From: an uncultured Starkeya sp.
GTDB taxonomy: Bacteria; Pseudomonadota; Alphaproteobacteria; Rhizobiales; Xanthobacteraceae
Reading direction: 5' to 3'
Assembly: GCA_964543245.1 (NCBI GenBank)
Contig: CAZIXP010000001.1
Span: forward strand, 49,882-113,881
Length of the DNA: 64,000 nucleotides
A program made the position numbers and the translations under genes. This document shows positions 28,465 through 54,748 of the stretch, in pieces; the first letter of the stretch is position 1, and each line of letters opens with the position of its first letter. The notes below the pieces were generated by a model. The model was given only the letters and a program-made list of their open reading frames with translations, was not told the origin of the DNA and made no database searches.

Positions 28465-28469
28465 ACCTC

Positions 28470-35175: not shown

Positions 35176-36582
35176 CTACGAGCAGGTGATTGCTCTGTTC
35201 TCGGCGCGATCGGGATCGGCGCGGGGCGCTCGCGACAGCATGGCTTTGCTGAATTGCAGCTCCGCGCGAAGACCGCCCTCGGAACGGTTCCCGAGACTGA
35301 CATTCCCGCCGAGGCGCTTTGCCGCCAGCTCGGCAATCGCGAGCCCGAGACCGCTTCCCATCGCTGTCTTGTTGCGGCCGCGGTAGAACCTTTCGCAAAC
35401 CTTGGGCAACTCGTCTTCGGGGATTCCGGGGCCGTTGTCTTCAATGGTCACCGCGACGGCGTCGCCATCGATCCTCACTCCGCAACGGACGACGCCGTCG
35501 TTGCGGGAATGCAGCACGGCATTTTCCATGAGGTTGCGCACCGCCAGCATGAACAGCGACGCGTCGAGCTGAAGATAGATATCGTTCAGCTTGGCGTCGA
35601 TCTCGATCGGCACCGCGTCCGAGTAGTGTTGGCGGATGTCGTCGACGAGCTGGCCGACCAGCTTGCCCAGGTTGACGCGACGACCGTCGGCATCGGCTTC
35701 GCCCCGCTCGGCATTCGTCAGGTCGGTGAGCTGACGCATCAGCCGAGAGGTCCGGTCCACTCCGACCACAATCTGGCGCAGAGCGTTGCGCCGAATGTCG
35801 GGATCGTCGCTACCCAGCGCGACCTGCGCCTGGGTTTTGAGTCCCGCAACCGGCGTGCGCAGTTCATGCGCCGCGAAAGCCGTGAAGTCGCGCTCGCGCT
35901 CGCGGGCCGCATGGACGCGTCCGAACAGCCCGTTGAGCGAGCGGATGACGGGCTTGATCTCGGAGGGCGTGTCCACGTCCGGCAGCGCGCTCAGATCGGA
36001 CGCCGGACGTGTCTCCAACGCATGAGCCATCTTGTTGAGAGGCCCGAGGCCTTTCCTGACGCTCAGCCATATCAGCCCGGCCAGGATCGGCAGGATCAGC
36101 AGTGCCGGAAGGGCCAGGCCCCGGATGACATCGGCGACCAGCCGGTCGCGAACGCGCATATTGTCCCCGACGAGAACGCGCATGCCCAGATCGGCGTTGA
36201 CCACGGCATAGACGCGCCAGGTCTCTCCATCGATGAGCGTCTCCGAAAAGCCATCCTTGGCATCGGATAGGGGAGTCGCCGGCGCTGCGTCCGAACGGCC
36301 GACCAGGGTCCCGTCCAGCGCCCAGATCTGACACGAAAGCTGGCGATCGTAGGAGGCATGCATGGTTGGCTCGATGGCCGGAATCTGCGCTGCGCGCATC
36401 GGATCGATCTCCTGGCTGGTGATCAGCGAGCTCACCATGCGCGCCGCCTCGATCAGCCGGGCGTCGAGAACCCGCTCCACCTCAGCGCGGGTGCTGAGAT
36501 AGATCCAGGCGATCGCCGACATCCACACCACGCCGGTGGTGATCATCAGGATCAGGAAGAGCCGGCTCCGGATCGACGTCAC
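35176..36582 (-). CDS. Sensor histidine kinase (QseC/PmrB-like)
   Basis: Two TM segments, FAAHELRTP, NLMENA, DNGPGI and GSGLGL. Confidence 0.93.
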   Translation of the reverse strand: MTSIRSRLFLILMITTGVVWMSAIAWIYLSTRAEVERVLDARLIEAARMVSSLITSQEIDPMRAAQIPAIEPTMHASYDRQLSCQIWALDGTLVGRSDAAPATPLSDAKDGFSETLIDGETWRVYAVVNADLGMRVLVGDNMRVRDRLVADVIRGLALPALLILPILAGLIWLSVRKGLGPLNKMAHALETRPASDLSALPDVDTPSEIKPVIRSLNGLFGRVHAARERERDFTAFAAHELRTPVAGLKTQAQVALGSDDPDIRRNALRQIVVGVDRTSRLMRQLTDLTNAERGEADADGRRVNLGKLVGQLVDDIRQHYSDAVPIEIDAKLNDIYLQLDASLFMLAVRNLMENAVLHSRNDGVVRCGVRIDGDAVAVTIEDNGPGIPEDELPKVCERFYRGRNKTAMGSGLGLAIAELAAKRLGGNVSLGNRSEGGLRAELQFSKAMLSRAPRADPDRAENRAITCS

Positions 36583-37244
36583 GCGGTCGCCTCCGCCAGC
36601 TTGTAGCCGACGCCGCGCACCGTCTCGATGACGCTCGGGCCGAGCTTCTGCCTCAGATTGTGGATGTGCACTTCGATCGTGTTGCTTTCGATATCCTCTT
36701 GCCAGCCATAGAGCCGGTCCTCGAGCTGCGACTTCGACAGGATTTGGCCGGGCCGATCCATCAGCGCATGCAGGATGGAGAACTCGCGGCGCGAAAGACG
36801 AATCGCCTCACCGCTCTTTGTGACCGCCATCGTCGCGGGATCGAGGCGCAGATCGCGCCAGATGCGGCAGGCGGACGCGCCGCCGTTGCCGCGTCGCGTC
36901 AGCGCCCTCAGCCGGGCGGCTACCTCGTTCAGATCGAAGGGCTTCCCCAGATAGTCGTCCGCGCCGGCGTCGAGGCCGGCGATCCGGTCGGGCACGCTGT
37001 CCCGCGCCGTCAGAAGAAGGACCGGCGTTCCAACCTGCCGCCCTCGCAATTCGTCCAGTACGCCGAGCCCCGAGCCGTCAGGGAGCATCAGGTCGAGGAC
37101 GACCGCGTCAAAGGCCGAGATTCTTAGTGCAGCCGAGGCATCGGCGCAGGTGGAGACTGCGTCAACCGTGAAACCGGCCAGGCCCAGCCCGACCTGCAGG
37201 CCGTTCAGCAGCACCGCGTCATCTTCGACGACCAAAACTCTCAT
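36579..37244 (-). CDS. OmpR-family response regulator (QseB/PmrA-like)
   Basis: VEDD, LDLMLPDGSG, LTARD, GADDYLGKPF, SNTIEVHIHNLRQKL. Confidence 0.95.
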   Translation of the reverse strand: MRVLVVEDDAVLLNGLQVGLGLAGFTVDAVSTCADASAALRISAFDAVVLDLMLPDGSGLGVLDELRGRQVGTPVLLLTARDSVPDRIAGLDAGADDYLGKPFDLNEVAARLRALTRRGNGGASACRIWRDLRLDPATMAVTKSGEAIRLSRREFSILHALMDRPGQILSKSQLEDRLYGWQEDIESNTIEVHIHNLRQKLGPSVIETVRGVGYKLAEATA

Positions 37245-39181: not shown

Positions 39182-39237
39182 CTGGCAGGGAGAGGACGCC
39201 AATGTTCTGAGTTTTGCACGCGACGGTCTCAATGGGC

Positions 39238-40029: not shown

Positions 40030-40074
40030 GCCGTCTCGGTCGCGGGCGTGCGGCGTCAGCAGAGCCGCGCACCT

Positions 40075-40091
40075 CTTAAGCCTGCCTTAAG
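40075..40091. promoter_or_regulatory. CTTAAG-N5-CTTAAG box upstream of dsbD
   Basis: cttaag-cctgc-cttaag. Confidence 0.75.
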
Positions 40092-40135
40092 CTGCCGATC
40101 AGACCTCTCCCGCCCGTGTCACATGAAGCGGGAGC

Positions 40136-42795: not shown

Positions 42796-42902
42796 CGCCG
42801 GTGGTTCCGATGCAAATCGCGGCCGGCCCGCTGCCCTTCACCCCCAAAGTTGAACCATCCGCCTTCCTCGATTCGGGCGCGGCCAACGATGCGTAACGAC
42901 CA

Positions 42903-43514: not shown

Positions 43515-43583
43515 CCGCGTTGGCATAGTCAATCATTTGGAACGGACGCCTCCCATTACAACGATCCGGAGGCCTCCAAAGCA

Positions 43584-44240
43584 ATGGGGTTTCGTAACAT
43601 GGAGATCAATTGGGACAGCAGATTCGAACGTGAGGACTATCTCTTCGGGACCGAGCCAAACGCTTTTCTTGCCTCGCAGGCCTTCCGGCTGCAACCTGGA
43701 ATGAAGGCGCTTGCGGTCGCCGACGGAGAGGGGCGCAACGGCGTCTGGCTCGCCGAGCGTGGGCTCGACGTCGTTTCGTTCGATGCCTCAACGGTCGCGC
43801 TTGCAAAGGCGCGGGACCTCGCCCGCCGACGCGACGTGACCTTGCAGACCGTGCATTCCGATCTTGCCGAGTGGGAGTGGGAACCCGAAACCTACGACGT
43901 CGTCGCCGCGATCTTTGTGCAGTTCGCACCGCCCGATTTGCGCAAGACGATGTTCGAAGGCTTCCACACATGCCTGAAGCCTGGCGGAATTCTGATCATG
44001 CGGGGATATCGCGTCGAACAGCTTCGCTACGGCACCGGTGGCCCGCCGCACGCCGATCATCTCTACACGAAGGATATGCTGATCCGGTCATTCGGGCATT
44101 GGGAAATCCGATACCTTCAGGAGCATGACAGCGTGATCGAGGAAGGAGCCGGGCATTCCGGCATATCGGCCCTGATCGATCTCGTTGCCGAAAAGGCAAG
44201 ACATGATGTCCTGCCGCTCCCCTCATTGAAGGCCGCGTAG
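43584..44240 (+). CDS. Class I SAM-dependent methyltransferase
   Basis: WDSRF..EDYLFGTEPNAFL, VADGEGRNGVWLA and LKPGG. Confidence 0.88.
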   Translation: MGFRNMEINWDSRFEREDYLFGTEPNAFLASQAFRLQPGMKALAVADGEGRNGVWLAERGLDVVSFDASTVALAKARDLARRRDVTLQTVHSDLAEWEWEPETYDVVAAIFVQFAPPDLRKTMFEGFHTCLKPGGILIMRGYRVEQLRYGTGGPPHADHLYTKDMLIRSFGHWEIRYLQEHDSVIEEGAGHSGISALIDLVAEKARHDVLPLPSLKAA

Positions 44241-44294
44241 ACGGATTGCATAGCGATGTCGTAGCTCGTGACGTCATCGCGCATCGGGCGCCAC

Positions 44295-45038
44295 CTAGCC
44301 AACCGCCAGATACGACATCATTGGGTCGGGGATGACGACGATCGGGCTGCCATCGCGAACCTCGTCATGGAGATGGATGACATCCTGATTGAGCAGCCGG
44401 ATGCAGCCGGACGAGACGGCATGACCGATCGAAAAGGCCTCGGGCGTGCCGTGCAGCCGATAGAGCGTGTCGCGCCCGCCTTCATGAATGTAAAGCGCGC
44501 GCGAGCCAAGCGGGTTGTTGAGTCCGGGGTCCATTCCGCCATTTGCGATGCTGTACGGCTCCAGCTCGGGCTGGCGGGCGACCATGCTGTCGGGCGGCGT
44601 CCAACGCGGCCATTTGCGCTTGTAGGCGACGATCGCGCGCCCCGACCATGCAAAGCCTTCGCGGCCGACGCCGATGCCATAACGCGTCGCGCGGCCCTCC
44701 GGCTTCACATGGTAGAGGTACTTGCCAGGCGTATCGACGATCAGCGTTCCTGGCCGCTCCTCTGTCGGATAGTCGACCTCCGTCCGCCAGAAGCGGCGAT
44801 CGACCTGGGAGACGTCGACCTCGGGAATGGGGAACGGCTCGTTCGGCATCGCCGTATACATCAGCGGAACCACGGGTTCCGGCTCGACCTTGACAACTGG
44901 CGCCATCATCGGGACCGGCTGGCGTGTCGATACGCAGCCCGCCAGTGTAAAGGCGCTGGCGCCGACCAGAAATGCGCGCCGTGCCAGCGGCCTGGAAAGT
45001 GTCGTTTTACTCAATTGTCTCTCAGCCTTCCGAATCAT
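44295..45038 (-). CDS. L,D-transpeptidase, Tat/lipoprotein signal
   Basis: ARRAFL..LAGC, RYGIGVGREG, NPLGSRALY, RLHGT...SSGCIRL. Confidence 0.93.
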   Translation of the reverse strand: MIRKAERQLSKTTLSRPLARRAFLVGASAFTLAGCVSTRQPVPMMAPVVKVEPEPVVPLMYTAMPNEPFPIPEVDVSQVDRRFWRTEVDYPTEERPGTLIVDTPGKYLYHVKPEGRATRYGIGVGREGFAWSGRAIVAYKRKWPRWTPPDSMVARQPELEPYSIANGGMDPGLNNPLGSRALYIHEGGRDTLYRLHGTPEAFSIGHAVSSGCIRLLNQDVIHLHDEVRDGSPIVVIPDPMMSYLAVG

Positions 45039-45070
45039 TCCGGTTCAGAACGCTCAAACGTCAGGGCCAC

Positions 45071-45087
45071 CTTAAGCCTGCCTTAAG
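45071..45087. promoter_or_regulatory. CTTAAG-N5-CTTAAG box between the L,D-transpeptidase and thioredoxin genes
   Basis: cttaag-cctgc-cttaag. Confidence 0.75.
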
Positions 45088-45127
45088 ACGGGAACTCACC
45101 GTTGCCTCGAACAACGGAGAGCCACAA

Positions 45128-45655
45128 ATGCTGATTTCGACCTGGAAGCTGGCAGACATTCACCGGAACGATCAGGGCGCGGGTGCCTGCGGTCATCGTC
45201 CGTCCCGGTCCGCGATCGTCGCAACGCGGCGTCAACTCCTGATCGGAGCTCTCAGCGTCGCGGCCGCTACCAGCCTTGCCGTTCCTGCCGGGGCCGCGGT
45301 CCTGACCGTCACCAACCTCGACCAATACCGAGGCGGTCTTGCACGCCTCGCTCCGCGCTACCGGACCGCGCTCGTCGACATTGGCGCGGAATGGTGCGCC
45401 TTCTGCAAGACCATTGATCAGAAGATCCTCCCGGACCCCGGCGTCCGGCGAGCCATGGAGCGAATTGCGCTGATCAAGGTCGACGTGACCAGAATGGGCC
45501 AGTCCAGCCGCGAGCTCCTTCGATACCTGCGCGCCGACGGGCCCCCAACGCTCTTCGTCGTGCAGACTGCGAGCGGACATGAATTCTCAGGCACGCGATC
45601 CGTCGGAGCCTTTCGAGCGAGTGACCTCGTCCGGCGCCTGCGCCCGTTCGCCTGA
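45128..45655 (+). CDS. Exported thioredoxin-family protein (DsbD gamma-like)
   Basis: TRRQLL signal, GAEWCAFCK, IKVDVT and GPPT; start uncertain. Confidence 0.8.
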   Translation: MLISTWKLADIHRNDQGAGACGHRPSRSAIVATRRQLLIGALSVAAATSLAVPAGAAVLTVTNLDQYRGGLARLAPRYRTALVDIGAEWCAFCKTIDQKILPDPGVRRAMERIALIKVDVTRMGQSSRELLRYLRADGPPTLFVVQTASGHEFSGTRSVGAFRASDLVRRLRPFA

Positions 45656-45686: not shown

Positions 45687-45700
45687 TTGATTGAGATCAA
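45687..45700. promoter_or_regulatory. Perfect FNR/FixK consensus box upstream of the triheme cytochrome-tsdA operon
   Basis: TTGAT-TGAG-ATCAA, 47 bp before the ATG. Confidence 0.75.
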
Positions 45701-45746
45701 CGCGTGCGTTGGGCCGCTCATGATACTTACATAATTACTGAAAGTA

Positions 45747-47099
45747 ATGGGGCGGATCGTGAAACTGTTCATCAAGCTAGCGCTATTCGCGATCTGCGGA
45801 CTTGGAATCTCCTATGCCTTCGCGATTTCCACCCCCTATTGGTTCAAGCCGAAGGCCGAGGCGCATGTCGACGTCACCGATGCCGCCCTGATCCGCCAGG
45901 GCGCGTATCTCGCGCGCGCAGGCGACTGCATCGCTTGCCACACCGCCCCTGGCGGCAAACCCTTCGCCGGCGGCCTCGGCATGCAGACGCCGATGGGCAC
46001 GATCTATTCGACCAACATCACGCCCGATGCTCAAACGGGTATCGGCGGCTACAGCTACGGCGACTTCGAGCGGGCCGTACGAAAAGGCATCCGGCCCGAC
46101 GGCACGCACCTCTACCCCGCCATGCCCTACGTCTCCTATGCTGTCGTCAAGGACGAGGACATCAAGGCGCTCTACGCCTACTTCATGTCGAGCGTCGAAG
46201 GGGTCCGGCAGGACAACCAGCCGACCACCATGCCTTGGCCGCTCAGCATGCGCTGGCCGCTTGCCTGGTGGCAGCTCATGTTCGCCCAGCCCCGCGACTT
46301 TGCCGCGACGACCACCGATCCGCAGCTCGTGCGCGGCGCCTATCTTGTCGAGGGCCTCGCCCATTGCGGCGCCTGCCATACGCCACGCGGCATCGCGTTT
46401 CAGGAAACGGCCCTCGCCGATGGCCCGAACAGCCGATTTCTGTCGGGCTCCGTCCTGGAGGGCTGGTACGCCAAAAACCTTCGCGATGAAGACACTGGCC
46501 TGTCGACCTGGACGGTCGATGAGATCGTCGATTTCCTGAAGACTGGCCGCAATGCCAAGACGGCGGCCTTCGGCTCGATGTCCGATGTCGTTGAGCATTC
46601 CACCCAGTATCTTGCGGCCGACGACCTGACGACGATCGCCACCTACCTCAAATCGCTGAACGCCCGCGACGGACGCAGCCCGACATGGCAGCCGAAGGAG
46701 GATCTCACCACCGCGGCCCTCAAGGCCGGCGATTTCAGCGCCCCCGGCGCCATGTCCTACGTCGAGCACTGCGCGACCTGCCACCGGATGGACGGCAAGG
46801 GCGCGCCGCGCATCTATCCGGCGCTCGCCGGAAACTCGATGGTCTTTGCCGATGATCCAAGCTCCCTCATCCAGGTGACGCTTGCCGGCGGGCGCATGCC
46901 CCGCACCCCGCATGACACCATGGCCTTCACCATGCCCGGCTTCGCTCACCTGACGAACCGCGAGGTCGCGGCGATGCTGAACTTCATCCGCAATGGCTGG
47001 GGCAATCACGGCAGCGAGATCACCGAGGCCGACATCTCGCGCATGCGTCATGAGATCGCGCGCAAGCCGAAGCACTACGTACCGGGAGAACAAGAATGA
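45747..47099 (+). CDS. Triheme cytochrome c, AdhB / gluconate dehydrogenase cytochrome-subunit family
   Basis: GAYLARAGDCIACH, STNITPD, GAYLVEGLAHCGACHTPR, CATCH; N-terminal membrane anchor. Confidence 0.9.
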   Translation: MGRIVKLFIKLALFAICGLGISYAFAISTPYWFKPKAEAHVDVTDAALIRQGAYLARAGDCIACHTAPGGKPFAGGLGMQTPMGTIYSTNITPDAQTGIGGYSYGDFERAVRKGIRPDGTHLYPAMPYVSYAVVKDEDIKALYAYFMSSVEGVRQDNQPTTMPWPLSMRWPLAWWQLMFAQPRDFAATTTDPQLVRGAYLVEGLAHCGACHTPRGIAFQETALADGPNSRFLSGSVLEGWYAKNLRDEDTGLSTWTVDEIVDFLKTGRNAKTAAFGSMSDVVEHSTQYLAADDLTTIATYLKSLNARDGRSPTWQPKEDLTTAALKAGDFSAPGAMSYVEHCATCHRMDGKGAPRIYPALAGNSMVFADDPSSLIQVTLAGGRMPRTPHDTMAFTMPGFAHLTNREVAAMLNFIRNGWGNHGSEITEADISRMRHEIARKPKHYVPGEQE

Positions 47100-48007
47100 C
47101 CAACCGCTCCCTCATCTTGACCGGGATCGCGATCGTGGCGATCACCGCAGCGGCCGGCATATTTGCGCTAACGCACCAGCGCACGCTGGATGCCCCGGTT
47201 AACGACGCAATCGCGATCCTGGACGCTACCGGCGCCCGCATCGGCGACTATCGCATTCCGCCGGACAGTTCGATCGCGCAAGAGCCCAATGCGGTTGCCA
47301 TCATGCTTGGCAAGCGGCTGCTGAACGAAACCGCGCGCCTGCTTCCCACCAATGTCGGCAACGGGCTCAACTGCAACTCCTGCCACATGGCTCAAGGCAA
47401 GCTCTCCGACGCCAACACCTACATCAATACAAGCAATTTCTATCCCGCCGTCATGCCCCGCGCCGGGCGCGTGGTCGATCTCGTCACGCGCATCAACGGC
47501 TGCTTCCAGCGATCGATGAACGGCAAGCCTCTCGCAGAGGACAGCTCCGAAATGCAGGCAATGGTCGCCTATATGGACTGGTTGCGGCAGGACGTGGCCA
47601 AAGGCGCCAGGGTTGCGGTCCGCAACGCCGGGCCGATCGACGACACTCTGATACCGGATCCCGAGAGAGGCCAGGCGATCTACGCCGCCCAGTGCGCCTC
47701 ATGCCATGGCGCCAATGGGCAGGGCATGAAAGACCAGTCCGGCGACTATATCTTCCCGCCGCTCTGGGGTGACGAATCGTTCAATATCGGCGCCGGCATG
47801 GCGAGAACTTACAAGGCGGCGCAGTTCGTCAAATATGCGATGCCGCCGGCCATGAACCTGATACCTCCGCTCGGAACGGGCGGCGTCCTCTCCGATCAGG
47901 ATGCCGTCGATGTTTCGGAATACTTCACCCACATGCCCCGTCCCGATTTCGCCGGAAAAGTGCACGACTGGCCCACAGGCAACAAGCCGGAGGACGCGCG
48001 TTATTAG
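47096..48007 (+). CDS. tsdA: Diheme thiosulfate dehydrogenase / tetrathionate reductase TsdA (copy 1)
   Basis: CNSCH, catalytic Cys in RINGCFQRSMNG, CASCH, PPLWGDESFNIGAGM, KYAMPP. Confidence 0.85.
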   Translation: MTNRSLILTGIAIVAITAAAGIFALTHQRTLDAPVNDAIAILDATGARIGDYRIPPDSSIAQEPNAVAIMLGKRLLNETARLLPTNVGNGLNCNSCHMAQGKLSDANTYINTSNFYPAVMPRAGRVVDLVTRINGCFQRSMNGKPLAEDSSEMQAMVAYMDWLRQDVAKGARVAVRNAGPIDDTLIPDPERGQAIYAAQCASCHGANGQGMKDQSGDYIFPPLWGDESFNIGAGMARTYKAAQFVKYAMPPAMNLIPPLGTGGVLSDQDAVDVSEYFTHMPRPDFAGKVHDWPTGNKPEDARY

Positions 48008-48038: not shown

Positions 48039-48055
48039 CTTAAGGTTGCCTTAAG
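48039..48055. promoter_or_regulatory. CTTAAG-N5-CTTAAG box upstream of the ccoN-like operon
   Basis: cttaag-gttgc-cttaag. Confidence 0.75.
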
Positions 48056-48125: not shown

Positions 48126-49700
48126 ATGGTGACGATGGGACTGTTGTTGGCGTTGAGCTTCGCCGTGTCGCTGCTCGCGCTCGCGTTCCTGATCTGGGCG
48201 ATCAGCAACAAGCAGATCAAGCTCGACCAGCAAGACGCCAAGGTGATCTTCGCCGCGGGCGACGAGAACCACCTTGACAGCCCCGACGCCGAGCAATCGC
48301 CCGCCAGGCGACATTACTTCGACACCGTCACCACCGGCATCGACCACATATCCATGAGGCCGGCGGCCGTCCTTCTCGTCGCGGCCACCCTATGGCTGCT
48401 CGTCGGTTCGGCCTTCGGCCTCATCGCCTCGCTGAAGCTGCATTGGCCGGACTGGCTTTCCGCCTACGCACCGCTCACCTTCGGCCGCGTCCGCACGCTA
48501 CACCTCAACCTTGTCATCTACGGGTGGCTGTCGCAGGCCGGCATCGCCGCGATGATCTGGGTTTTGCCGCGCATCTTCCACACGCCGCTGCGCGCGCCCC
48601 GGATGCCGATCATCGGAGCGGTCCTCTGGAACATCGCCGTGGCGCTGGGAGCCGTCGCGATCGCCAACGGCTGGACGGATGGCGAGGAGTGGCTGGAAAT
48701 TCCCTGGCAGCTCGACATGCTGTTGGCGCTGGCCGGCGTCTTCTTCGTCATCCCGCTGGTGAAGACGACGCTCGCTCGGGAGGTCCACCACATCTATGTG
48801 AGCGGCTGGTACTTCCTCGCGGGAATCCTCTGGTTCCCCTGTCTCTTCGTCATTGCAAATCTGCCCTACATCCATTCGGGCGTCGAAGAGGCCACGGTGA
48901 ACTGGTGGTTCGCGCACAATGTGCTGGGCCTCTGGCTGACGCCGCTCGGCGTGGGAACGGCCTACTACTTCATTCCGAAAATCATCGGCAAACCGATCTA
49001 TTCCTATTCCGTCTCACTGCTTGGATTCTGGGGCCTCGCACTCTTCTACAGCCAGGTGGGCATCCATCATCTGATCGGCGGACCGGTGCCGACCTGGGTC
49101 GTGACGCTCTCCATCGTTCATTCGGTGATGATGTTCATCCCGGTGATCGCGGTGGCCATCAACCAGCATGTCACGGTCGCCCGCAATCTCTGGGCCCTGA
49201 AAGAATCGCTGCCGTTGCGCTTCATATCCTTCGGCGCCGTCATGTATACGCTGGCGTCGTTCCAGGGTTCGATCGAGGCGCTGCGCTCGGTCAACACGGT
49301 CACGCATTTCACGCACTACACGGTCGGGCACGCCCATCTCGGCGCCTACGCCTTCGTGACGATCGTCATGTTCGGCGCTGCCTATCACATGCTGCCGCGC
49401 ATGACCGGCCGGGCCTTCCAGTGGCCGGCTCTGATCAACGCTCACTTCTGGCTGATCGTCGTCGGCTTCGCGATCTACTTTTTCGGGCTTTCGATCGGTG
49501 GCGTGCTGCAGGGCCTCGCCATGCTCGATGCGACACGTCCGTTCTCTGACAGCGTCATCCTCACGATCCCTTACCTCGAGGCGCGCAGTCTCGGCGGCAG
49601 CCTTATGACGCTTGGCCACATCCTCTTCGCCGTCAATGTCGCCGCCATCCTCATTCCGCGCCGGGCATCGGCGGCCGCACGCGTGGTGCCCGCCGAATGA
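48126..49700 (+). CDS. ccoN: Divergent cbb3-type (C-family) oxidase subunit I with a CcoS-like N-terminal extension
   Basis: RTLHLN, WWFAHN, FYSQVGIHH and GHAHLG give all six His ligands and the helix VII Tyr. Confidence 0.85.
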   Translation: MVTMGLLLALSFAVSLLALAFLIWAISNKQIKLDQQDAKVIFAAGDENHLDSPDAEQSPARRHYFDTVTTGIDHISMRPAAVLLVAATLWLLVGSAFGLIASLKLHWPDWLSAYAPLTFGRVRTLHLNLVIYGWLSQAGIAAMIWVLPRIFHTPLRAPRMPIIGAVLWNIAVALGAVAIANGWTDGEEWLEIPWQLDMLLALAGVFFVIPLVKTTLAREVHHIYVSGWYFLAGILWFPCLFVIANLPYIHSGVEEATVNWWFAHNVLGLWLTPLGVGTAYYFIPKIIGKPIYSYSVSLLGFWGLALFYSQVGIHHLIGGPVPTWVVTLSIVHSVMMFIPVIAVAINQHVTVARNLWALKESLPLRFISFGAVMYTLASFQGSIEALRSVNTVTHFTHYTVGHAHLGAYAFVTIVMFGAAYHMLPRMTGRAFQWPALINAHFWLIVVGFAIYFFGLSIGGVLQGLAMLDATRPFSDSVILTIPYLEARSLGGSLMTLGHILFAVNVAAILIPRRASAAARVVPAE

Positions 49701-50317
49701 ACCGCTATCTTCCCCTTTCGATCATCGCGCTCGGCATCCTGGCTTTCGCAACCTTGCTGCTTGTCATCGCGCCGGGCATCCAGATCGGCCGTCACGACGC
49801 TCCGCCTGGTCTGGAGCCCTATACCGAGCAGCAATTGCGCGGCCGCCAGGTCTACGTGTCGCTCGGCTGCGTCTACTGTCACAGCCAGCAACCGCGATCG
49901 CCCGACCAGGCGCCCGACGGCGCACGGGGCTGGGGACGTCCGGCCATTGCCGCGGATTACACCTACGATGCGCCCCATCAGCTTGGGACAATGCGCACCG
50001 GACCCGATCTCCTGAACGTCGGCGCAAGACTGCCGTCACGGGACTGGCACCTGGCCCATCTCTATCAGCCGCGCGCCATCTTCGACTGGAGCATCATGCC
50101 GGCCTATCCTTTCCTCTTCGAGGTCAAGGGTGCCCCCGGTCCCGGCGACGTTGTCGTCTCCATGCCTTCCGGCTTTGGGCCCGAAGCAGGCGTTATCGTC
50201 GCCAAGCAGGACGCGCTTGATCTCACCGCCTATCTGCTGTCCCTCGACCGTACATATCCGGCGCCCGCCGACGCCATTCGCGACGATGGCTACCGCCGTC
50301 CGGAGGGCACGCCATGA
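49697..50317 (+). CDS. ccoO: cbb3-type oxidase subunit II-like monoheme cytochrome
   Basis: GRQVYVSLGCVYCHSQQPR, RTGPDL and SIMPAY. Confidence 0.88.
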   Translation: MNRYLPLSIIALGILAFATLLLVIAPGIQIGRHDAPPGLEPYTEQQLRGRQVYVSLGCVYCHSQQPRSPDQAPDGARGWGRPAIAADYTYDAPHQLGTMRTGPDLLNVGARLPSRDWHLAHLYQPRAIFDWSIMPAYPFLFEVKGAPGPGDVVVSMPSGFGPEAGVIVAKQDALDLTAYLLSLDRTYPAPADAIRDDGYRRPEGTP

Positions 50318-51561
50318 CCGCTGACAAAAAGCAGGAAGCGGAGCGCTCTTCTCGCATCGACGAAACCTTCGAGCCCTACGAACTGCACGGCAAGATGCCA
50401 TGGCCGCTGATCGCGTTCGCCGTCGGACTCGGTCTCTGGGGCGTTGCCACGCTGTTCGAGACGCGAGAGGACGTTGTTGGCGCTCAGGCGGAGCGCGTCG
50501 CTCGAAGCCATACGGAAACCGGCGTGGCGACTGAACCCGGCGCGCCGCTCTTCCTCGCCCGGTGCTCGACATGTCATCAGCCGGACGGCTTGGGCGTGCG
50601 CGGCGCCATCCCTCCGCTTGCCGGCTCTGCCTTCGTCGCTCACGGGCCGGAGCTTGTCGCAACGATCCTGCTGCGCGGCATTGATGGACCGATCCGTGTT
50701 GGCGACCATGTCTTTAACGGGCACATGCCGAGCTTCTCCAGTGTGCTCACGGATGTCGAAATCGGCGAGCTCGCAACCTATGTCGCACGTCGCTTCGGCA
50801 CGTCGTCCGACAGCCTTAACGCTCCGGATGTGGCCATGCTGCGCGATCGTGTCGCCGGCAGCGGCAGCTTCAAGGGCGGGGCCGAGATTGCGTCGTCCAC
50901 CGACCTCGATCTGGGCCATCAGCCGGCCTTCGTCCCTGCGACCGCCATGTCGCTCACCCCGGAAGTGTCCGCGCTGGTCTTCACCGGCCGCGGCGAGCAA
51001 TGGGCTTGCGCAAGCTGTCACGGCGATCTCGGCCAGGGCAAGGAGAATACCCCGCGCCTCGCCGGCCTTTCCGCCGATTACATCGTCAAGCAGCTCGGCG
51101 ACTTCGCGGCGGGCCGTCGCCTCAACGAATCCATGCGGTTGATCGTGGCCTCGCTGTCCGATGAGGAAAAGCGCCAGCTCGGCGACTATTACGCCGCGCT
51201 ACGCGTGCCATCGAACGCCCGGCCCGATCTCGGCGGGAGCCTCGCGCGCGGCGAGGCTCTCGCGCTTCATGGCGACTGGAGCCGCAACGTCCCGGCCTGC
51301 TTCTCCTGTCATGGGCCCTCCGGCTTCGGCGTCGCACCCGAATTCCCGCCGATCGCCGCCCAGCATGCCGCCTACACCGCGAGCCAGCTTGCGGCATGGG
51401 CCGGGGGCCATCGCAACAATTCTCCGCTCGATCTGATGGGGCGGATCTCACGCGAACTCAGCGACGCCGATCGAAGGGCCGTGGCCGACTACCTCGCCTC
51501 CCTCCCTCCAGTGCCAGCAGGAGACGACACCCAGATCGCGGAAATCGGAGAACATCCATGA
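50314..51561 (+). CDS. Membrane-anchored triheme cytochrome c: monoheme domain fused to a TsdB/c4-like diheme unit
   Basis: TM segment, then CSTCH, CASCH and GDWSRNVPACFSCHGP. Confidence 0.85.
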   Translation: MTADKKQEAERSSRIDETFEPYELHGKMPWPLIAFAVGLGLWGVATLFETREDVVGAQAERVARSHTETGVATEPGAPLFLARCSTCHQPDGLGVRGAIPPLAGSAFVAHGPELVATILLRGIDGPIRVGDHVFNGHMPSFSSVLTDVEIGELATYVARRFGTSSDSLNAPDVAMLRDRVAGSGSFKGGAEIASSTDLDLGHQPAFVPATAMSLTPEVSALVFTGRGEQWACASCHGDLGQGKENTPRLAGLSADYIVKQLGDFAAGRRLNESMRLIVASLSDEEKRQLGDYYAALRVPSNARPDLGGSLARGEALALHGDWSRNVPACFSCHGPSGFGVAPEFPPIAAQHAAYTASQLAAWAGGHRNNSPLDLMGRISRELSDADRRAVADYLASLPPVPAGDDTQIAEIGEHP

Positions 51562-52592
51562 CAGAGCCTGCGGAGAGCCTTGCCGCCAAACCAGCCGATC
51601 CTCAGAGAGGGCGGATTGCACGATGGTGGATCCACGCAGCCGGCGCTGGCATCATCGCCGCCGCCCTGGGAGCGCTCGCCTACGAAAGCGGCATCATCCC
51701 AGGACGACAAACGTCGCAGCAAGTCGCCGGGCCTGCCACGGCTGGCTTCTTCCAGCCTCCGGCCGACGACCAGATTCCCGACGACGAGTTCGGCGCCGCC
51801 ATCCGTCGGGGGCAGGCGATCTTCATGAACACCTCGACCAATGCATCCCAATATGTGGGCAACGGCCTGTCCTGTTCGAACTGCCATCTCGGCGCCGGCC
51901 GCCAGCCATTCTCCGCCCCGATGTGGGCTGCCTGGGGCCAGTATCCCCGCTACCGGTCGAAGAACAACCAGATCAACACGATGGAAGATCGCGTGCAAGG
52001 GTGCTTCACCTTCTCCATGAACGCCCAACACTCGGTTGCCGGTGGGCCTCCGCCGCATGGCGATGACATCTATCGCGATCTTCAAAGCTACTTCTACTGG
52101 CTTGCTAGCGGCGCCCCCAACAACGAGCTGATGAGCGGCGCCGGATTTGGCAGAGTGGCCAGGACCGAGCTCGGCTACTCTCCCGAGCGCGGCGCCCAAG
52201 TGTTCGCGGCCAACTGCGCCGTCTGCCACGGTGCCGAGGGTCAGGGCCAGATGGACATCAACGATCGCTATGTCTTTCCGCCGCTCTGGGGTCCGAATTC
52301 CTACAATTGGGGTGCCGGCATGGCCCGCATCGACACGGCTGCGGCCTTCATCAAGCACAACATGCCATTGTCCCAGCCCGGCCGGCTGACCGATCAGGAG
52401 GCGTGGGACGTCGCCGCCTATATCAACAGCTTCGAGCGTCCGAAGGATGCGAGACAGCAGGGGCGCACGATCGAGGAAACGCGCCGACTCTACCACGATG
52501 GCGATGAGATCTATTACGGACAGGTCGTCAACGGCGTGCTTCTGGGCGTCGGCACCCCCGATCCGGTGCGGCCGGTCGGCGCCGTGGACTGA
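51558..52592 (+). CDS. tsdA: Diheme thiosulfate dehydrogenase TsdA (copy 2), membrane-anchored
   Basis: CSNCH, RVQGCFTFSMN, CAVCH, PPLWGPNSYNWGAGM, KHNMP. Confidence 0.88.
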   Translation: MTEPAESLAAKPADPQRGRIARWWIHAAGAGIIAAALGALAYESGIIPGRQTSQQVAGPATAGFFQPPADDQIPDDEFGAAIRRGQAIFMNTSTNASQYVGNGLSCSNCHLGAGRQPFSAPMWAAWGQYPRYRSKNNQINTMEDRVQGCFTFSMNAQHSVAGGPPPHGDDIYRDLQSYFYWLASGAPNNELMSGAGFGRVARTELGYSPERGAQVFAANCAVCHGAEGQGQMDINDRYVFPPLWGPNSYNWGAGMARIDTAAAFIKHNMPLSQPGRLTDQEAWDVAAYINSFERPKDARQQGRTIEETRRLYHDGDEIYYGQVVNGVLLGVGTPDPVRPVGAVD

Positions 52593-52597
52593 CCGCC

Positions 52598-54748
52598 ATG
52601 CGCCGGCTCGTCGCGGTCGAGGGCATGGCATGCGGCGGCTGCGCGCGCGGGCTGGAAAAGCGTCTCAGCCAACTCGAAGGCGTCAACAGCGTCGGCGTCC
52701 ACCATCTGACCGCATCCATGCTGGTCGATTGGGACGAGGCGAGGACATCGATCGCCAAGATCGCGTCCGTCGTCTCGAGCGCCGGGTATGCCCTGGTCGA
52801 CCGGCATCAGCCCGACGAACTATCGGCAATGCTTTCTGGAGATATTCGCCGGCTGAGCCTTCGCCTTGCCGTCGCCGTGATGGCAGGGATGTGGTCGATG
52901 GCGCTCGCCGTCGTACTCTACGTCTCCGACATCGATGCGACAGTCGCCTGGTGGATCGCGCTCGCCTCCGGCGTCCTGGCGCTGCCGGTCCTGCTCTGGG
53001 CGGGAGCTGGCATCTTCTGGATGGCCTTCCGATCAGTCCGACTGCGTACGCCCACCATGGATCTACTGATCGCCTTGGGCGCCGGCGGCGCATTTGCTCT
53101 CTCTTTGGTGTCACTCGCGTCCGGATCATCGCATGTCTATTTCGACACCGCGACAATGCTGATCACGCTTCTCCTTCTCGGGCGTCTCGTCGATCTGATC
53201 ACCAGGCGCAGCGCAATCGATGCGTTGAAGGCTCTCGAAGAGGCTTCCGTGGAGACGGCCGTAAGACGCACCGCTTCGGGGAACAAAGTTGTCCCATGCA
53301 GTGAGGTCGAGATCGGCGATCGGGTCGTCATCGACGCCGGCGCGGCGATCAGTGTCGACGGGATCATCCAGGAGGGCCGGAGCCTCATCAACCGCGCGGT
53401 CCTGACAGGTGAAAGCCATCCGCTTCCGGTCGGCGCCGGGCAACGCGTCGAGGCGGGCGCGATCAATCTCGAAAGGCGCCTCATCGTTTCGGTCGACCGT
53501 GCCCATGGAGATCGCGACCTTGATCGTATGGGCGGCGCGATCATGCTGGAGCTTGCCCGGCGCGGCACGCTCGCCTCACGCGCCGACCGTCTCGCCGGCG
53601 TGCTGAGCTGGGGAATCCCGGGATTGGCGCTGCTCACTGCGGTCACGCTGCCGCTCGCAGGGGTCGCGGGAGCAGACGCCATTCTGAGGGGGCTGACGGT
53701 GCTTGCCGCAGCCTGCCCGTGCGCTTTGTCGATCGCCGCGCCGCTTGCACAGGCGCGCGCGGCCGGCATCGCGGCGAGACTCGGCCTGCGGCTCCGGGAT
53801 CCTGTCGCTTTTGAATCGCTCGCCCAGCCGGCAACAGCCATCTTCGACAAGACGGGTACTCTGACCACAGGCCTCCCCTCAGTGGTTGAGGTCGCTGCTG
53901 CCAAGGGCTGGAGCAAAGACGATGTGCTGCGGCTTGCTGCAATTGCCGAAACCGGGATCGATCATCCTCTGGCGCGGGCGATCGTCGCACGACACGGCCG
54001 TGAAGAAGGCGCGGGCGGGACGCGGCGGGAACGCAGCGCCGAGGCAAGGGATCGCGACGGTCGTTGCATCAGCGTCTATGGAATCGATCGCGACGACGGC
54101 ATGACCTCGCTTGCCGTGAGCCTCGACGATGTCGTCATCGGCTCCCTCGGCCTCGCCGATGCTCCCACCGGCCAAGCGCGCGGGACCGTCGACCGGTTCC
54201 GGGAGATGGGTATCGACATGTGGATTGCGTCCGGAGACGGCGGCGGTCCGACGTTGCGGGTCGCGAAGCCTCTCGGTATTCCCGCGCCCCGCGTCCGTTA
54301 CGGCTGCACGCCGGCAGACAAGGTTGAGCTCGTGAAAGCCGCAACCGCTCCTGTTCTCTTCGTCGGGGATGGCGTTAACGACGCTCCGGCGCTCGCCGCC
54401 GCCGATTGCGGCATTTCCGTTGCCGGTGCCCATAGCGCCGCTGCGCGAACCGCGGACGTGGTCATCGTCAATGGCGGGATCGATCAGCTCGTGTCTGCGA
54501 TCGCGCTTGCCCGTCGCACGGTCGCAATCACCCGACAGAACGTGGGCCTCGCCATGATCTACAACCTGTTGGCCGTCCCGTTGGCAATTGCGGGCACGCT
54601 GTCGCCGTCCCTAGCGGCCCTCGCCATGCTCGCGAGTTCGTCGTCGGTCGCGTTCAACAGCTTGCGTTTAGAACCATCAGGGACGTCCGCCCCGCCGGCA
54701 AAAGCGGCGCCCCAGTCCGCAGAACTCTGCGACGAGCCTGTTGGTTAG
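52598..54748 (+). CDS. Cu-type P1B ATPase, CcoI/FixI-like
   Basis: N-terminal [29 protein letters not shown] and MLASS. Confidence 0.88.
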   Translation: MRRLVAVEGMACGGCARGLEKRLSQLEGVNSVGVHHLTASMLVDWDEARTSIAKIASVVSSAGYALVDRHQPDELSAMLSGDIRRLSLRLAVAVMAGMWSMALAVVLYVSDIDATVAWWIALASGVLALPVLLWAGAGIFWMAFRSVRLRTPTMDLLIALGAGGAFALSLVSLASGSSHVYFDTATMLITLLLLGRLVDLITRRSAIDALKALEEASVETAVRRTASGNKVVPCSEVEIGDRVVIDAGAAISVDGIIQEGRSLINRAVLTGESHPLPVGAGQRVEAGAINLERRLIVSVDRAHGDRDLDRMGGAIMLELARRGTLASRADRLAGVLSWGIPGLALLTAVTLPLAGVAGADAILRGLTVLAAACPCALSIAAPLAQARAAGIAARLGLRLRDPVAFESLAQPATAIFDKTGTLTTGLPSVVEVAAAKGWSKDDVLRLAAIAETGIDHPLARAIVARHGREEGAGGTRRERSAEARDRDGRCISVYGIDRDDGMTSLAVSLDDVVIGSLGLADAPTGQARGTVDRFREMGIDMWIASGDGGGPTLRVAKPLGIPAPRVRYGCTPADKVELVKAATAPVLFVGDGVNDAPALAAADCGISVAGAHSAAARTADVVIVNGGIDQLVSAIALARRTVAITRQNVGLAMIYNLLAVPLAIAGTLSPSLAALAMLASSSSVAFNSLRLEPSGTSAPPAKAAPQSAELCDEPVG

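What the first reader, a model, noticed from the sequence alone, without database searches (positions are those of the whole stretch)
45687..48007. Second TsdA paired with an AdhB-like triheme cytochrome behind a perfect FNR box
Seen: TTGAT-N4-ATCAA 47 bp upstream of a two-gene unit. The residue before the heme-2 Met is Ala here (KYAMP) but Asn in TsdA copy 2 (KHNMP). By counting from CxxCH, this aligns with Lys208 of Allochromatium TsdA and Asn254 of Campylobacter TsdA. Known: that position tunes the direction of catalysis, and AdhB-type trihemes of acetic acid bacteria exchange electrons with ubiquinone. Inference: a low-oxygen, quinone-coupled TsdA. It could do quinol-driven tetrathionate respiration or feed thiosulfate electrons to the island's bd oxidase, closing a thiosulfate/tetrathionate cycle with copy 2.
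Basis: partly seen in the sequence, partly recalled or inferred. Interest (0 to 1): 0.76.

Follow-up and report, generated by a model that had tools for sequence, protein, structure and literature searches.

The report
FNR-controlled TsdA with triheme cytochrome partner
A conserved two-gene unit pairs a thiosulfate/tetrathionate enzyme (TsdA) with a three-haem cytochrome of the kind that acetic acid bacteria use to reach ubiquinone, behind a low-oxygen (FNR-type) promoter box; this partner for TsdA appears undescribed and could link tetrathionate directly to the quinone pool.

Summary
One perfect TTGAT-N4-ATCAA box lies at 45687-45700, 47 nt before a translationally coupled gene pair. The first gene encodes a three-haem cytochrome c, 48% identical to Gluconobacter AdhB. 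The second encodes a genuine TsdA with the Cys haem ligand and a KYAMP motif.

Comparative genomics strengthens it. The same pair is adjacent in 79 of the 80 best loci from Alpha-, Beta- and Gammaproteobacteria, often standing alone. An FNR-type box with at most one mismatch sits 45-64 nt before the start codon in 36 of 38 alphaproteobacterial upstream regions, against 1.3% of control windows.

The downstream genes are a separate operon: ccoN, ccoO, an anchored TsdB-like cytochrome, tsdA2 and a copper ATPase. It has its own CTTAAG-N5-CTTAAG box, probably bound by a PmrA/QseB-like regulator.

Best reading: a membrane-tethered TsdA:triheme complex induced at low oxygen that links the thiosulfate/tetrathionate couple to the respiratory chain, probably at ubiquinone. 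Thermodynamics favours quinol to tetrathionate. Quinone coupling and direction are inferred, not shown.

The Ala before the haem-2 Met varies within the clade (Ala and Asn about equal), so it is weak evidence for direction. I rate it a new variant of a known kind, of moderate to high interest.

The parts
45687..45700 (+). FNR/FixK-type box TTGATTGAGATCAA
   Evidence: It is the only exact match in the window (expected 0.01). It is conserved at the same spacing in orthologous loci. It has at most one mismatch in 36/38 alphaproteobacterial upstream regions against 1.3% of controls.
45720..45745 (+). Conserved promoter-proximal block (GATAyTTACATAATTA..GAAAGT). It holds candidate -10 hexamers (GATACT 45722-45727 or CATAAT 45730-45735) and a Shine-Dalgarno-like GAAAG.
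   Evidence: The block is invariant between the window and L006/L008, while the spacer 45701-45719 diverges. With GATACT as the -10 element the box centre falls near -41.5, the class II FNR geometry. This is inference; the transcription start was not mapped.
45747..47099 (+). AdhB-family triheme cytochrome c, 450 aa. Its only hydrophobic segment is N-terminal (signal or anchor). GTG 45759 is an alternative start.
   Evidence: It has three CxxCH motifs and hits Pfam Cytochrom_C. It matches 8gy2_B at E=4e-118 and 48% identity. The only hydrophobic segment is residues 1-29. It lies upstream of the tsdA1-type gene in 79/80 loci.
47096..48007 (+). TsdA1, a dihaem thiosulfate dehydrogenase/tetrathionate reductase of 303 aa with an N-terminal hydrophobic anchor or signal
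   Evidence: It matches 4wq7 at E=1e-47 with the Cys-ligand motif and KYAMP aligned. It hits Pfam SoxA-TsdA_cyt-c. It overlaps the upstream gene as ATGA. The clade carries an insertion of about 8 residues after the haem-2 Met.
45128..45655 (+). Thioredoxin-like protein (DsbD C-terminal-domain type) with a twin-arginine signal, directly upstream. A CTTAAG-N5-CTTAAG box lies at 45071-45087.
   Evidence: Pfam Thioredoxin_7; NCBIfam DsbD C-terminal region; box. No terminator-like site lies between it and the FNR box, so read-through into the pair is possible.
48039..48055 (+). CTTAAGGTTGCCTTAAG direct-repeat box in the 118-nt gap. It marks a separate promoter for the oxidase operon.
   Evidence: Five such boxes occur in the window against 0.01 expected. 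A box lies about 86 nt upstream of ccoN in every locus that has ccoN, even where other genes are inserted after tsdA1.
48126..49700 (+). Divergent cbb3-type (C-family) oxidase subunit I, CcoN-like. Neighbouring operon, not part of the pair.
   Evidence: Pfam COX1. It matches 3mk7_A at E=4e-67 with all six His ligands and Tyr251 conserved. NCBIfam ccoN scores 275 bits, below the 583-bit cutoff.
49697..50317 (+). CcoO-like monohaem subunit
   Evidence: Pfam FixO at 4e-30. NCBIfam ccoO scores below its cutoff.
50314..51561 (+). Membrane-anchored triheme cytochrome: a TM helix, a monohaem domain and a TsdB/c4-like dihaem domain. It sits where ccoP would be.
   Evidence: Residues 230-402 match the TsdB part of 5lo9 (E=6e-29) and cytochromes c4. 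A TM segment spans residues 30-50.
51558..52592 (+). TsdA2 (KHNMP), of the type found in the Marichromatium TsdBA fusion
   Evidence: It matches 5lo9 at E=1e-84 and 4wq7 at E=3e-49. It is 34% identical to TsdA1.
52598..54748 (+). Copper-type P1B ATPase, in a CcoI/FixI-like position
   Evidence: Pfam HMA, E1-E2_ATPase and Hydrolase. NCBIfam heavy-metal and copper P-type ATPase hits are above cutoff.
35176..37244 (-). Two-component pair: a QseC-like histidine kinase (35176-36582) and a PmrA/QseB-like response regulator (36579-37244). A CTTAAG box lies at 37293. This is the candidate regulator of the island.
   Evidence: Pfam. NCBIfam best matches are PmrA/QseB and QseC, all below cutoff. Box.

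Best explanation
The finding is a dedicated two-subunit respiratory module. TsdA1 is the catalytic dihaem subunit and interconverts thiosulfate and tetrathionate at its His/Cys haem. The AdhB-family triheme cytochrome is its fixed electron-transfer partner.

Shown:
- The two genes are translationally coupled and are inherited together across three proteobacterial classes.
- In Alphaproteobacteria they are preceded by their own FNR/FixK-type box.
- Each protein has a single N-terminal hydrophobic segment.

Inferred:
- These segments tether the complex to the periplasmic face of the membrane.
- The triheme subunit exchanges electrons with the ubiquinone pool, as AdhB does.
- When the module is induced (low oxygen, reduced quinone pool), the energetically favoured flow is ubiquinol to triheme to TsdA haem 2 to haem 1 to tetrathionate. 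That would make it a bc1-independent ubiquinol:tetrathionate oxidoreductase for bacteria that have only ubiquinone.
- The enzyme is probably reversible.

My confidence by step:
- Dedicated TsdA:triheme complex: about 0.9.
- Control by an FNR-family regulator in Alphaproteobacteria: about 0.85.
- Coupling at the quinone level: about 0.5.
- Net tetrathionate reduction under inducing conditions: about 0.45.
For: Pairing:
- The triheme gene lies immediately upstream of the tsdA1-type gene in 79/80 loci.
- The genes overlap as ATGA.
- The identities of the two proteins fall together across loci.
- The module stands alone among unrelated genes in Paracoccus, Stutzerimonas, Brucella anthropi, Pseudothauera and Stenotrophomonas. 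No other dedicated subunit is therefore needed.

Regulation:
- The exact box is unique in the window.
- It is conserved in position together with the -10 block.
- 36/38 alphaproteobacterial upstream regions have at most one mismatch, against 1.3% of control windows.
- No FNR-like box lies upstream of ccoN, and other genes are inserted between tsdA1 and ccoN in L013 and L017.

Catalysis:
- TsdA homology and ligand motifs.
- The Cys motif is conserved in 115/120 homologues.

Quinone link:
- 48% identity to AdhB, which lies just outside the TsdA/SoxA-partnered trihemes.
- AdhB subunit II reduces ubiquinone and carries ubiquinone redox sites (PMC9171043).
- SoxX-triheme fusions next to soxA-YZ-B show the same module serving another Cys-haem sulfur enzyme.

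Direction:
- The tetrathionate/thiosulfate couple is +198 mV (PMC9562282) and ubiquinone about +100 mV (textbook).
- Induction at low oxygen fits an electron-acceptor role.
- A small residue at the Asn254 position shifted CjTsdA towards reduction (PMC5146829).
- In Paracoccus and Aquamicrobium a two-component-type box accompanies the FNR box. This resembles the TtrRS plus Fnr control of Salmonella ttr, an analogy I draw from memory.
Against: - No quinone-site residue was checked.
- The protein lacks the roughly 45 C-terminal residues present in AdhB and FdhC. From memory, these contribute to membrane binding in at least FdhC.
- Homologous trihemes are all known as electron acceptors of dehydrogenases, and the SoxX fusions work in an oxidative pathway.
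- A tsdA preceded by 'cytC' in Pusillimonas is required for aerobic oxidation of thiosulfate to tetrathionate (10.1101/708438). Advenella loci of this clade carry the triheme. At least some members therefore run oxidatively in vivo.
- Ala at the tuning position is not conserved.
- FNR-type boxes are rare in Beta- and Gammaproteobacteria (2/31).
- The box could belong to an NO-responsive family member (NnrR/Dnr) rather than an oxygen sensor.
- The expression data available were uninformative.
Confidence: 0.5

Rival explanations
1. The same complex works mainly oxidatively. Thiosulfate is oxidised to tetrathionate and the triheme passes the electrons into the respiratory chain. They go either to an oxidised quinone pool and on to the bd or bo oxidase or to Nar, or to high-affinity oxidases and denitrification enzymes. 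This would give supplementary energy under microoxic or denitrifying conditions.
For: - All characterised relatives of the triheme accept electrons from periplasmic dehydrogenases.
- SoxX-triheme fusions lie in sox clusters.
- Knocking out tsdA in Pusillimonas, where it follows 'cytC', abolishes tetrathionate formation.
- Many carriers (Stutzerimonas, Psychrobacter, Advenella, Achromobacter, Paracoccus) belong to groups known for forming tetrathionate heterotrophically.
- From memory, the Pseudomonas stutzeri group oxidises thiosulfate anaerobically with nitrogen oxides (Sorokin 1999).
Against: - Thiosulfate to ubiquinone is uphill by about 100 mV (plus the textbook ubiquinone potential).
- The window already encodes an oxygen-linked oxidative route, TsdB-TsdA2 with the cbb3-type oxidase.
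- Induction at low oxygen suits an acceptor better than a donor.
Confidence: 0.3
2. The triheme is a functional analogue of TsdB. It links TsdA1 to soluble cytochromes c or directly to a terminal oxidase (here perhaps the neighbouring cbb3-type enzyme), not to quinone.
For: - It has no C-terminal hydrophobic segment.
- It lies next to the ccoNO operon in about 17 loci.
- Its third haem domain resembles CcoP-type and class I cytochromes.
Against: - In most loci (about 60 of 80) no oxidase genes are nearby.
- The oxidase operon brings its own TsdB-like cytochrome and its own promoter.
- The closest characterised relative is a quinone reductase subunit.
Confidence: 0.17
3. The FNR box drives one long seven-gene operon from the triheme gene to the ATPase gene, as in fixNOQP-fixGHIS. 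The pair would then be merely accessory cytochromes of a low-oxygen oxidase.
For: - No convincing intrinsic terminator lies in the 118-nt gap.
- A metatranscriptome contig spans 46949-48173.
- FNR boxes classically precede cbb3 operons (established knowledge).
Against: - A conserved CTTAAG-N5-CTTAAG box precedes ccoN in every locus.
- A GGDEF gene (L013) or an opposite-strand gene (L017) separates tsdA1 from ccoN.
- The pair occurs without the oxidase in most genomes.
- The metatranscriptome coverage is flat over both strands' genes and may contain DNA.
Confidence: 0.1

Closest known systems
TsdA / TsdB-TsdA thiosulfate dehydrogenase-tetrathionate reductase (Allochromatium vinosum, Campylobacter jejuni, Marichromatium purpuratum TsdBA)
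   Same: TsdA1 has the same dihaem fold family, the Cys-ligated active-site haem motif and the Met-ligated haem 2. The family is bidirectional, and the residue before the Met affects bias.
   Different: The partner is not the dihaem c4-type TsdB, HiPIP or bc1/cytochrome c. It is a 450-aa AdhB-family triheme cytochrome encoded immediately upstream. The clade carries an insertion of about 8 residues next to the haem-2 ligand and a conserved C-terminal tail. TsdA1 is only 34% identical to the TsdB-linked TsdA2 in the same window.
Subunit II (AdhB) of membrane-bound quinohaemoprotein alcohol dehydrogenase, and the cytochrome subunits of FAD-glucose, fructose and aldehyde dehydrogenases
   Same: Homology runs over the full length (E=4e-118, 48% identity), with three haem c sites and their Met motifs aligned. 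The role is that of an electron-transfer subunit for a periplasmic catalytic subunit. In AdhB the acceptor is ubiquinone.
   Different: The catalytic partner is a haem enzyme of sulfur metabolism, not a PQQ, FAD or Moco dehydrogenase, and no adhA-like gene is nearby. The C-terminal ~45 residues are missing. Databases often misname it 'alcohol dehydrogenase'.
Other tetrathionate/thiosulfate respiratory enzymes: TtrABC (Salmonella), DoxDA thiosulfate:quinone oxidoreductase (Acidianus, Acidithiobacillus)
   Same: The proposed overall reaction links the thiosulfate/tetrathionate couple to a quinone pool. The proposed control combines an anaerobic regulator with a two-component input. The Ttr comparison is from memory.
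   Different: There is no sequence relationship. No molybdopterin, Fe-S or DoxD/DoxA domains were found; only c-type cytochrome domains.
FNR/FixK-dependent promoters of fixNOQP/ccoNOQP
   Same: The same palindrome, TTGAT-N4-ATCAA, lies at a promoter-proximal position next to genes for microoxic respiration.
   Different: Here the box precedes the TsdA pair, not the cbb3-type oxidase genes. Those genes lack such a box and carry a different regulator site.

Membership tests
TsdA (dihaem thiosulfate dehydrogenase/tetrathionate reductase, SoxA family) | Two CxxCH haem c motifs in a protein of about 250-340 aa with significant similarity to characterised TsdA | tested here: met
   CNSCH and CASCH are present. 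It matches 4wq7 at E=1e-47 over residues 67-288. Pfam SoxA-TsdA_cyt-c scores 48 bits against a cutoff of 27.
TsdA (dihaem thiosulfate dehydrogenase/tetrathionate reductase, SoxA family) | Cysteine axial ligand of haem 1 (Av Cys96) in its conserved motif | tested here: met
   RINGCFQRSMNG aligns with RIGDCFERSLNG. The motif is conserved in 115/120 clade members.
TsdA (dihaem thiosulfate dehydrogenase/tetrathionate reductase, SoxA family) | Conserved Met ligand of haem 2 (Av Met209 / Cj Met255) | tested here: met
   KYAMP aligns with KHKMP. PMC5146829 states that the Met is strictly conserved.
TsdA (dihaem thiosulfate dehydrogenase/tetrathionate reductase, SoxA family) | Thiosulfate-oxidising or tetrathionate-reducing activity | not testable with these tools
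   Indirect evidence only. Swiss-Prot TsdA Q4FQB7 (Psychrobacter arcticus) is probably of this clade, because Stutzerimonas carries two TsdA types and Psychrobacter loci carry the module. I could not fetch its sequence.
TsdB-TsdA system | A dihaem c4-type TsdB encoded directly upstream of, or fused to, TsdA | tested here: not met
   The gene upstream of tsdA1 is an AdhB-type triheme. The criterion is met for tsdA2, whose upstream gene contains a TsdB-like dihaem domain.
Quinone-reactive triheme cytochrome c subunit of membrane dehydrogenases (AdhB type) | Three CxxCH motifs with Met distal-ligand motifs and full-length homology to AdhB | tested here: met
   Three CxxCH motifs. It matches 8gy2_B at E=4e-118, residues 38-434 against 33-434, with YPAMPY, FG(S/G)M and MPGF aligned. 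Identity is 48%.
Quinone-reactive triheme cytochrome c subunit of membrane dehydrogenases (AdhB type) | Partnered with a PQQ, FAD or Moco dehydrogenase catalytic subunit | tested here: not met
   The neighbours are a thioredoxin-like protein and TsdA. The partner is TsdA in 79/80 loci.
Quinone-reactive triheme cytochrome c subunit of membrane dehydrogenases (AdhB type) | Ubiquinone binding and reduction site; membrane association | not testable with these tools
   No description of the quinone-site residues of 8gy2 was available. The only hydrophobic segment is N-terminal, and the C-terminal extension of AdhB is absent.
FNR/FixK (CRP-FNR family) regulated promoter | TTGAT-N4-ATCAA palindrome upstream of the gene, conserved among orthologues | tested here: met
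   Exact and unique in the window. Present with at most one mismatch in 36/38 alphaproteobacterial upstream regions against 1.3% of controls, at 45-64 nt from the start codon.
FNR/FixK (CRP-FNR family) regulated promoter | Box centred near -41.5 relative to a mapped transcription start; oxygen-dependent expression requiring the regulator | not testable with these tools
   The transcription start is unknown. A candidate -10 (GATACT, 45722-45727) would give the class II geometry. A motif scan of the window found no FNR-type regulator gene. The metatranscriptome was uninformative.

The most novel reading that the evidence does not exclude
The pair is a bc1-independent ubiquinol:tetrathionate oxidoreductase. 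In genomes that carry the whole island it would work in series with the neighbouring TsdB-TsdA2-cbb3 oxidase. Tetrathionate and thiosulfate would then act as a diffusible periplasmic redox shuttle carrying electrons from the quinone pool to oxygen, as a mediator-based branch of the respiratory chain. The shuttle would be co-regulated with a periplasmic thiol-repair regulon (DsbD, thioredoxins, L,D-transpeptidase paralogues).
Probability: 0.1. Interest if true: 0.85.

Novelty: new variant of a known kind. Interest (0 to 1): 0.62.

Why it matters
TsdA is a widespread bidirectional enzyme. Its link to the respiratory chain is known only for a few cases: TsdB, HiPIP, and bc1 with cytochrome c.

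This analysis shows a large clade with a different, fixed partner from the quinone-reducing AdhB family. The clade has 476 relatives among species-representative genomes. It includes Brucella/Ochrobactrum, Achromobacter, Psychrobacter, Stutzerimonas and Paracoccus.

If the complex exchanges electrons with ubiquinone, it would be a fourth, unrelated type of tetrathionate/thiosulfate:quinone enzyme. It would give ubiquinone-only bacteria, including animal-associated opportunists, a route to tetrathionate respiration under oxygen limitation.

The work also corrects a common misannotation ('alcohol dehydrogenase'). It yields clear experiments, listed under the decisive next steps.

Tried and rejected
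- Expression evidence. Contigs from an activated-sludge metatranscriptome (X1) cover the whole region evenly, including genes on the opposite strand and the 118-nt gap. DNA carry-over cannot be excluded. I judged this uninformative for operon structure and regulation.
- Literature. I found no paper that links TsdA with an AdhB-type or triheme cytochrome, or with a cbb3 operon. Denkmann 2012, Kurth 2016 (JBC) and Brito 2015 are not held. A mention there cannot be excluded.
- Quinone site. I looked for a description of the quinone site or membrane anchor of AdhB/FdhC (8gy2, 7w2j) and found none.
- Regulator gene. A motif scan for an FNR/FixK-type regulator in the window found nothing.
- Single seven-gene FNR operon. 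Rejected as the main reading.
- Ala as a clade signature. Rejected.
- Paracoccus thiocyanatus. Its tsdA knockout could not be assigned to this clade, because the upstream gene is described only as cbb3-subunit-III-like or 'tsdB'.
- Plasmid search. It showed only that the pair occurs on some chromids and plasmids, and added nothing about function.
Full report
**1. The observation**

The window has exactly one TTGAT-N4-ATCAA site, TTGATTGAGATCAA at 45687-45700. Shuffled sequence predicts 0.01 such sites. The site ends 46 nt before ATG 45747.

Two overlapping genes follow. Gene 45747-47099 encodes 450 aa with CIACH, CGACH and CATCH. Gene 47096-48007 encodes 303 aa with CNSCH and CASCH. The stop of the first and the start of the second overlap as ATGA, with a GGAGAA motif just upstream. 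This arrangement is typical of translational coupling.

**2. The two proteins**

The 450-aa protein matches the cytochrome c subunit of Gluconobacter quinone-dependent alcohol dehydrogenase (8gy2_B).
- The match has E=4e-118 and covers residues 38-434.
- Identity is 48%.
- All three haem motifs and the YPAMPY, FG(S/G)M and MPGF methionine motifs align.
- Weaker matches are the cytochrome subunits of FAD-glucose, fructose and aldehyde dehydrogenases.
- Its only hydrophobic segment is N-terminal, residues 1-29.
- It ends 16 residues after the aligned core, whereas AdhB continues for about 44 more residues.

The 303-aa protein is a genuine TsdA.
- It matches Allochromatium TsdA at E=1e-47.
- The Cys-ligand motif aligns: RINGCFQRSMNG against RIGDCFERSLNG.
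- FVKYAMP aligns with FIKHKMP, which places Ala at the Lys208 position.
- PMC5146829 equates that position with Asn254 of Campylobacter TsdA. It reports that N254G shifts the bias towards tetrathionate reduction and K252G towards oxidation.

**3. Is the pair a unit?**

TsdA1 has thousands of homologues. I scanned one genome per species with an alignment of clade members. The scan found 476 relatives, and I analysed the best 80 loci.
- In 79 of 80 loci an AdhB-like triheme gene lies immediately upstream. The exception has only 332 nt of upstream sequence.
- The carriers span three classes:
  - Alphaproteobacteria: Brucella/Ochrobactrum, Pseudochrobactrum, Paracoccus, Xanthobacter.
  - Betaproteobacteria: Advenella, Achromobacter, a Neisseria species.
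  - Gammaproteobacteria: Psychrobacter, Ignatzschineria, Stutzerimonas.
- The identities of the two proteins fall in parallel across loci.
- In Paracoccus denitrificans, Stutzerimonas, Brucella anthropi, Pseudothauera and Stenotrophomonas the pair sits alone among unrelated genes.

The pair is therefore self-sufficient. The triheme must connect to general components of the respiratory chain.

**4. The FNR box**

In loci whose proteins are 79-88% identical to the window's, the box and a downstream block (GATAyTTACATAATTA..GAAAGT) are invariant, while the spacer between them diverges.

Among 69 distinct upstream regions I counted boxes with at most one mismatch within 260 nt of the start codon:

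| Set | Regions with a box |
|---|---|
| Alphaproteobacteria | 36 of 38, always 45-64 nt before the predicted start |
| Beta- and Gammaproteobacteria | 2 of 31 |
| Random windows from the same loci | 1.3% |

Achromobacter, Advenella and Stutzerimonas each carry a conserved variant with two mismatches at a fixed distance.

No FNR-like box, even allowing two mismatches, lies within 400 nt upstream of the ccoN-like gene in any locus. The box belongs to the pair.

Sequence alone cannot tell which family member binds it. FNR/FnrN and FixK would report oxygen; NnrR or Dnr would report NO.

**5. The neighbourhood**

Five more genes follow after a 118-nt gap.
- A CcoN-like subunit. All six metal-binding histidines and the cross-linked Tyr of the Pseudomonas stutzeri enzyme are conserved. 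It scores far below the NCBIfam ccoN cutoff.
- A CcoO-like subunit.
- A 415-aa cytochrome built from a TM anchor, a monohaem domain and a dihaem domain. The dihaem domain matches the TsdB part of Marichromatium TsdBA.
- TsdA2, which matches the TsdA part of the same fusion protein at E=1e-84.
- A copper-type P-type ATPase.

This is a TsdB-TsdA pair wired into a divergent cbb3-type oxidase operon. It is most simply read as a thiosulfate:oxygen route.

The operon has its own control element, CTTAAGGTTGCCTTAAG at 48039-48055.
- Five CTTAAG-N5-CTTAAG boxes occur in the window against 0.01 expected. All appear to lie between genes of the island.
- One always lies about 86 nt before ccoN, even where a GGDEF gene (L013) or an opposite-strand gene (L017) separates tsdA1 from ccoN.
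- The island encodes a PmrA/QseB-like response regulator and a QseC-like kinase.
- From memory, the box resembles the PmrA box.
- The oxidase cluster accompanies the pair in only about 17 of 80 loci.

In Paracoccus and Aquamicrobium the same box lies 250-310 nt upstream of the triheme gene, together with the FNR-type box. In the window the thioredoxin-like gene just upstream carries such a box, and no terminator-like site follows it. The pair may therefore receive two inputs.

**6. How it probably works**

What is shown:
- a dedicated TsdA:triheme gene pair;
- a conserved FNR-type site;
- an N-terminal hydrophobic segment on each protein.

The link to the quinone pool is inferred, on these grounds:
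- AdhB is just outside the TsdA-partnered trihemes in pairwise identity, 44-49% against 49-77% within the group.
- AdhB subunit II reduces ubiquinone and the enzyme has ubiquinone redox sites (PMC9171043).
- Relatives 58% identical are fused to a SoxX-like domain and sit next to soxA, soxYZ and soxB. This triheme module therefore serves Cys-haem sulfur enzymes more generally.

Direction is also inferred:
- The tetrathionate/thiosulfate couple is +198 mV (PMC9562282). Ubiquinone is near +100 mV (textbook value).
- Ubiquinol to tetrathionate is thus downhill by about 19 kJ/mol, and the reverse is uphill.
- Induction when oxygen is scarce and the quinone pool is reduced fits an acceptor role.

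Evidence against a purely reductive role:
- The family's known members are electron acceptors.
- In Pusillimonas a tsdA preceded by 'cytC' is needed for aerobic tetrathionate formation.
- Advenella loci of this clade carry the triheme.

TsdA enzymes are bidirectional, so both directions may be used in different hosts.

Among the 120 closest homologues about 55 have Ala and about 45 have Asn. An insertion of about 8 residues right after the haem-2 Met is clade-wide and is absent from Av, Mp and TsdA2. It lies where a partner would dock, which is an inference.

**7. Comparison with known systems, and novelty**

- The protein is a member of the TsdA family. All sequence criteria are met; activity is untested.
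- It is not a TsdB-TsdA system, because the partner criterion is not met.
- The cytochrome belongs to the AdhB family by sequence. It is not part of an alcohol dehydrogenase, although databases often name it so.
- It is unrelated to TtrABC and DoxDA.
- I found no paper describing this pairing. Three key closed-access papers could not be read.
- I therefore rate it a new variant of a known kind.

**8. Source and limits**

- The window is about 99% identical at protein level to contigs of Chelatococcus caeni DSM 103737 and of an assembly labelled Halodurantibacterium flavum.
- Near-identical islands occur in several genera of Hyphomicrobiales, which suggests recent transfer.
- Expression data were uninformative.
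- Nothing here shows activity, complex formation, quinone reactivity or oxygen-dependent regulation directly.

Noticed in passing
window 48126-54748: The operon is ccoN-like, ccoO-like, an anchored monohaem plus TsdB-like dihaem cytochrome, tsdA2, and a copper P-type ATPase. A canonical TsdB-TsdA pair sits where ccoP would be in a divergent cbb3-type oxidase operon. This is genomic support for the idea that TsdB donates directly to cbb3 oxidases, giving a candidate thiosulfate:oxygen oxidoreductase supercomplex. In CcoN, Glu323 is Gln and His243 is Gly (P. stutzeri numbering).
   Followed up: partly
window 37293, 39165, 40075, 45071, 48039 (17-nt boxes); regulator genes 35176-37244 (-): A CTTAAG-N5-CTTAAG direct-repeat box occurs five times against 0.01 expected. 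The sites lie upstream of dsbD, the thioredoxin-like gene, the ccoN-like gene and the response-regulator gene. It is probably the binding site of the island's PmrA/QseB-like regulator and QseC-like kinase. The identical 17-mer lies upstream of the triheme-tsdA pair in Paracoccus denitrificans (L009:8411-8427). Halomonas tsdBA is also reported next to a qseB-like regulator, DsbG and a thioredoxin (PMC9237845).
   Followed up: partly
window 39214-45655: The island gathers periplasmic thiol-redox and cell-wall genes: a DsbD/ScsB-like protein (40136-41995), several thioredoxin-like or AhpC-like proteins, and YkuD L,D-transpeptidase paralogues (42903-43514 and 44295-45038). Downstream lie an ArsR-type regulator and a 1-Cys peroxiredoxin (54912-55924). 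This may be a response to thiol-reactive tetrathionate or to copper. No test was made.
   Followed up: no
L092:5001-11399 (Rhodoblastus sp.): A 544-aa protein is 58% identical to the window's triheme and carries an extra N-terminal haem domain that sources annotate as SoxX. It lies directly upstream of soxA, soxY, soxZ and soxB. This is a SoxX-triheme fusion, which suggests that Sox electrons can enter through the same AdhB-type module.
   Followed up: partly
window 22290-22303 and 22959-29600: The cydDC-like ABC transporter genes and cydA (26887-28464) form the 'island's bd oxidase'. A one-mismatch FNR-like site (TTGATCCCGGTCAA) lies in the intergenic region upstream.
   Followed up: no
L006-L008, L016, L019-L022, L031 versus window; L011, L012: Near-identical copies of the whole island occur in assemblies from different genera (Shinella, Ancylobacter, Tardiphaga, a Bradyrhizobiaceae MAG, a Rhodospirillales MAG). 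The window's own version is 99% identical in Chelatococcus caeni and in an assembly labelled Halodurantibacterium flavum. This points to recent horizontal transfer or to mislabelled assemblies. L048 is labelled Bacillus subtilis but carries a Pseudochrobactrum-like locus.
   Followed up: no
L013:9912-11342; L017:9906-10972: In a Xanthobacter species a GGDEF-domain gene is inserted between tsdA1 and the ccoN-like gene. In Labrys and another Xanthobacter a 282-aa gene on the opposite strand is inserted there. The CTTAAG box stays next to ccoN in both cases.
   Followed up: partly
L073:10244-11179 (-) and L072:1740-2624 (-): In Stutzerimonas stutzeri and a Psychrobacter MAG a second TsdA gene, of the TsdA2 type (40-46% identity), lies within a few kb of the triheme-TsdA pair. 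The two TsdA types therefore co-occur outside the Hyphomicrobiales island as well.
   Followed up: no
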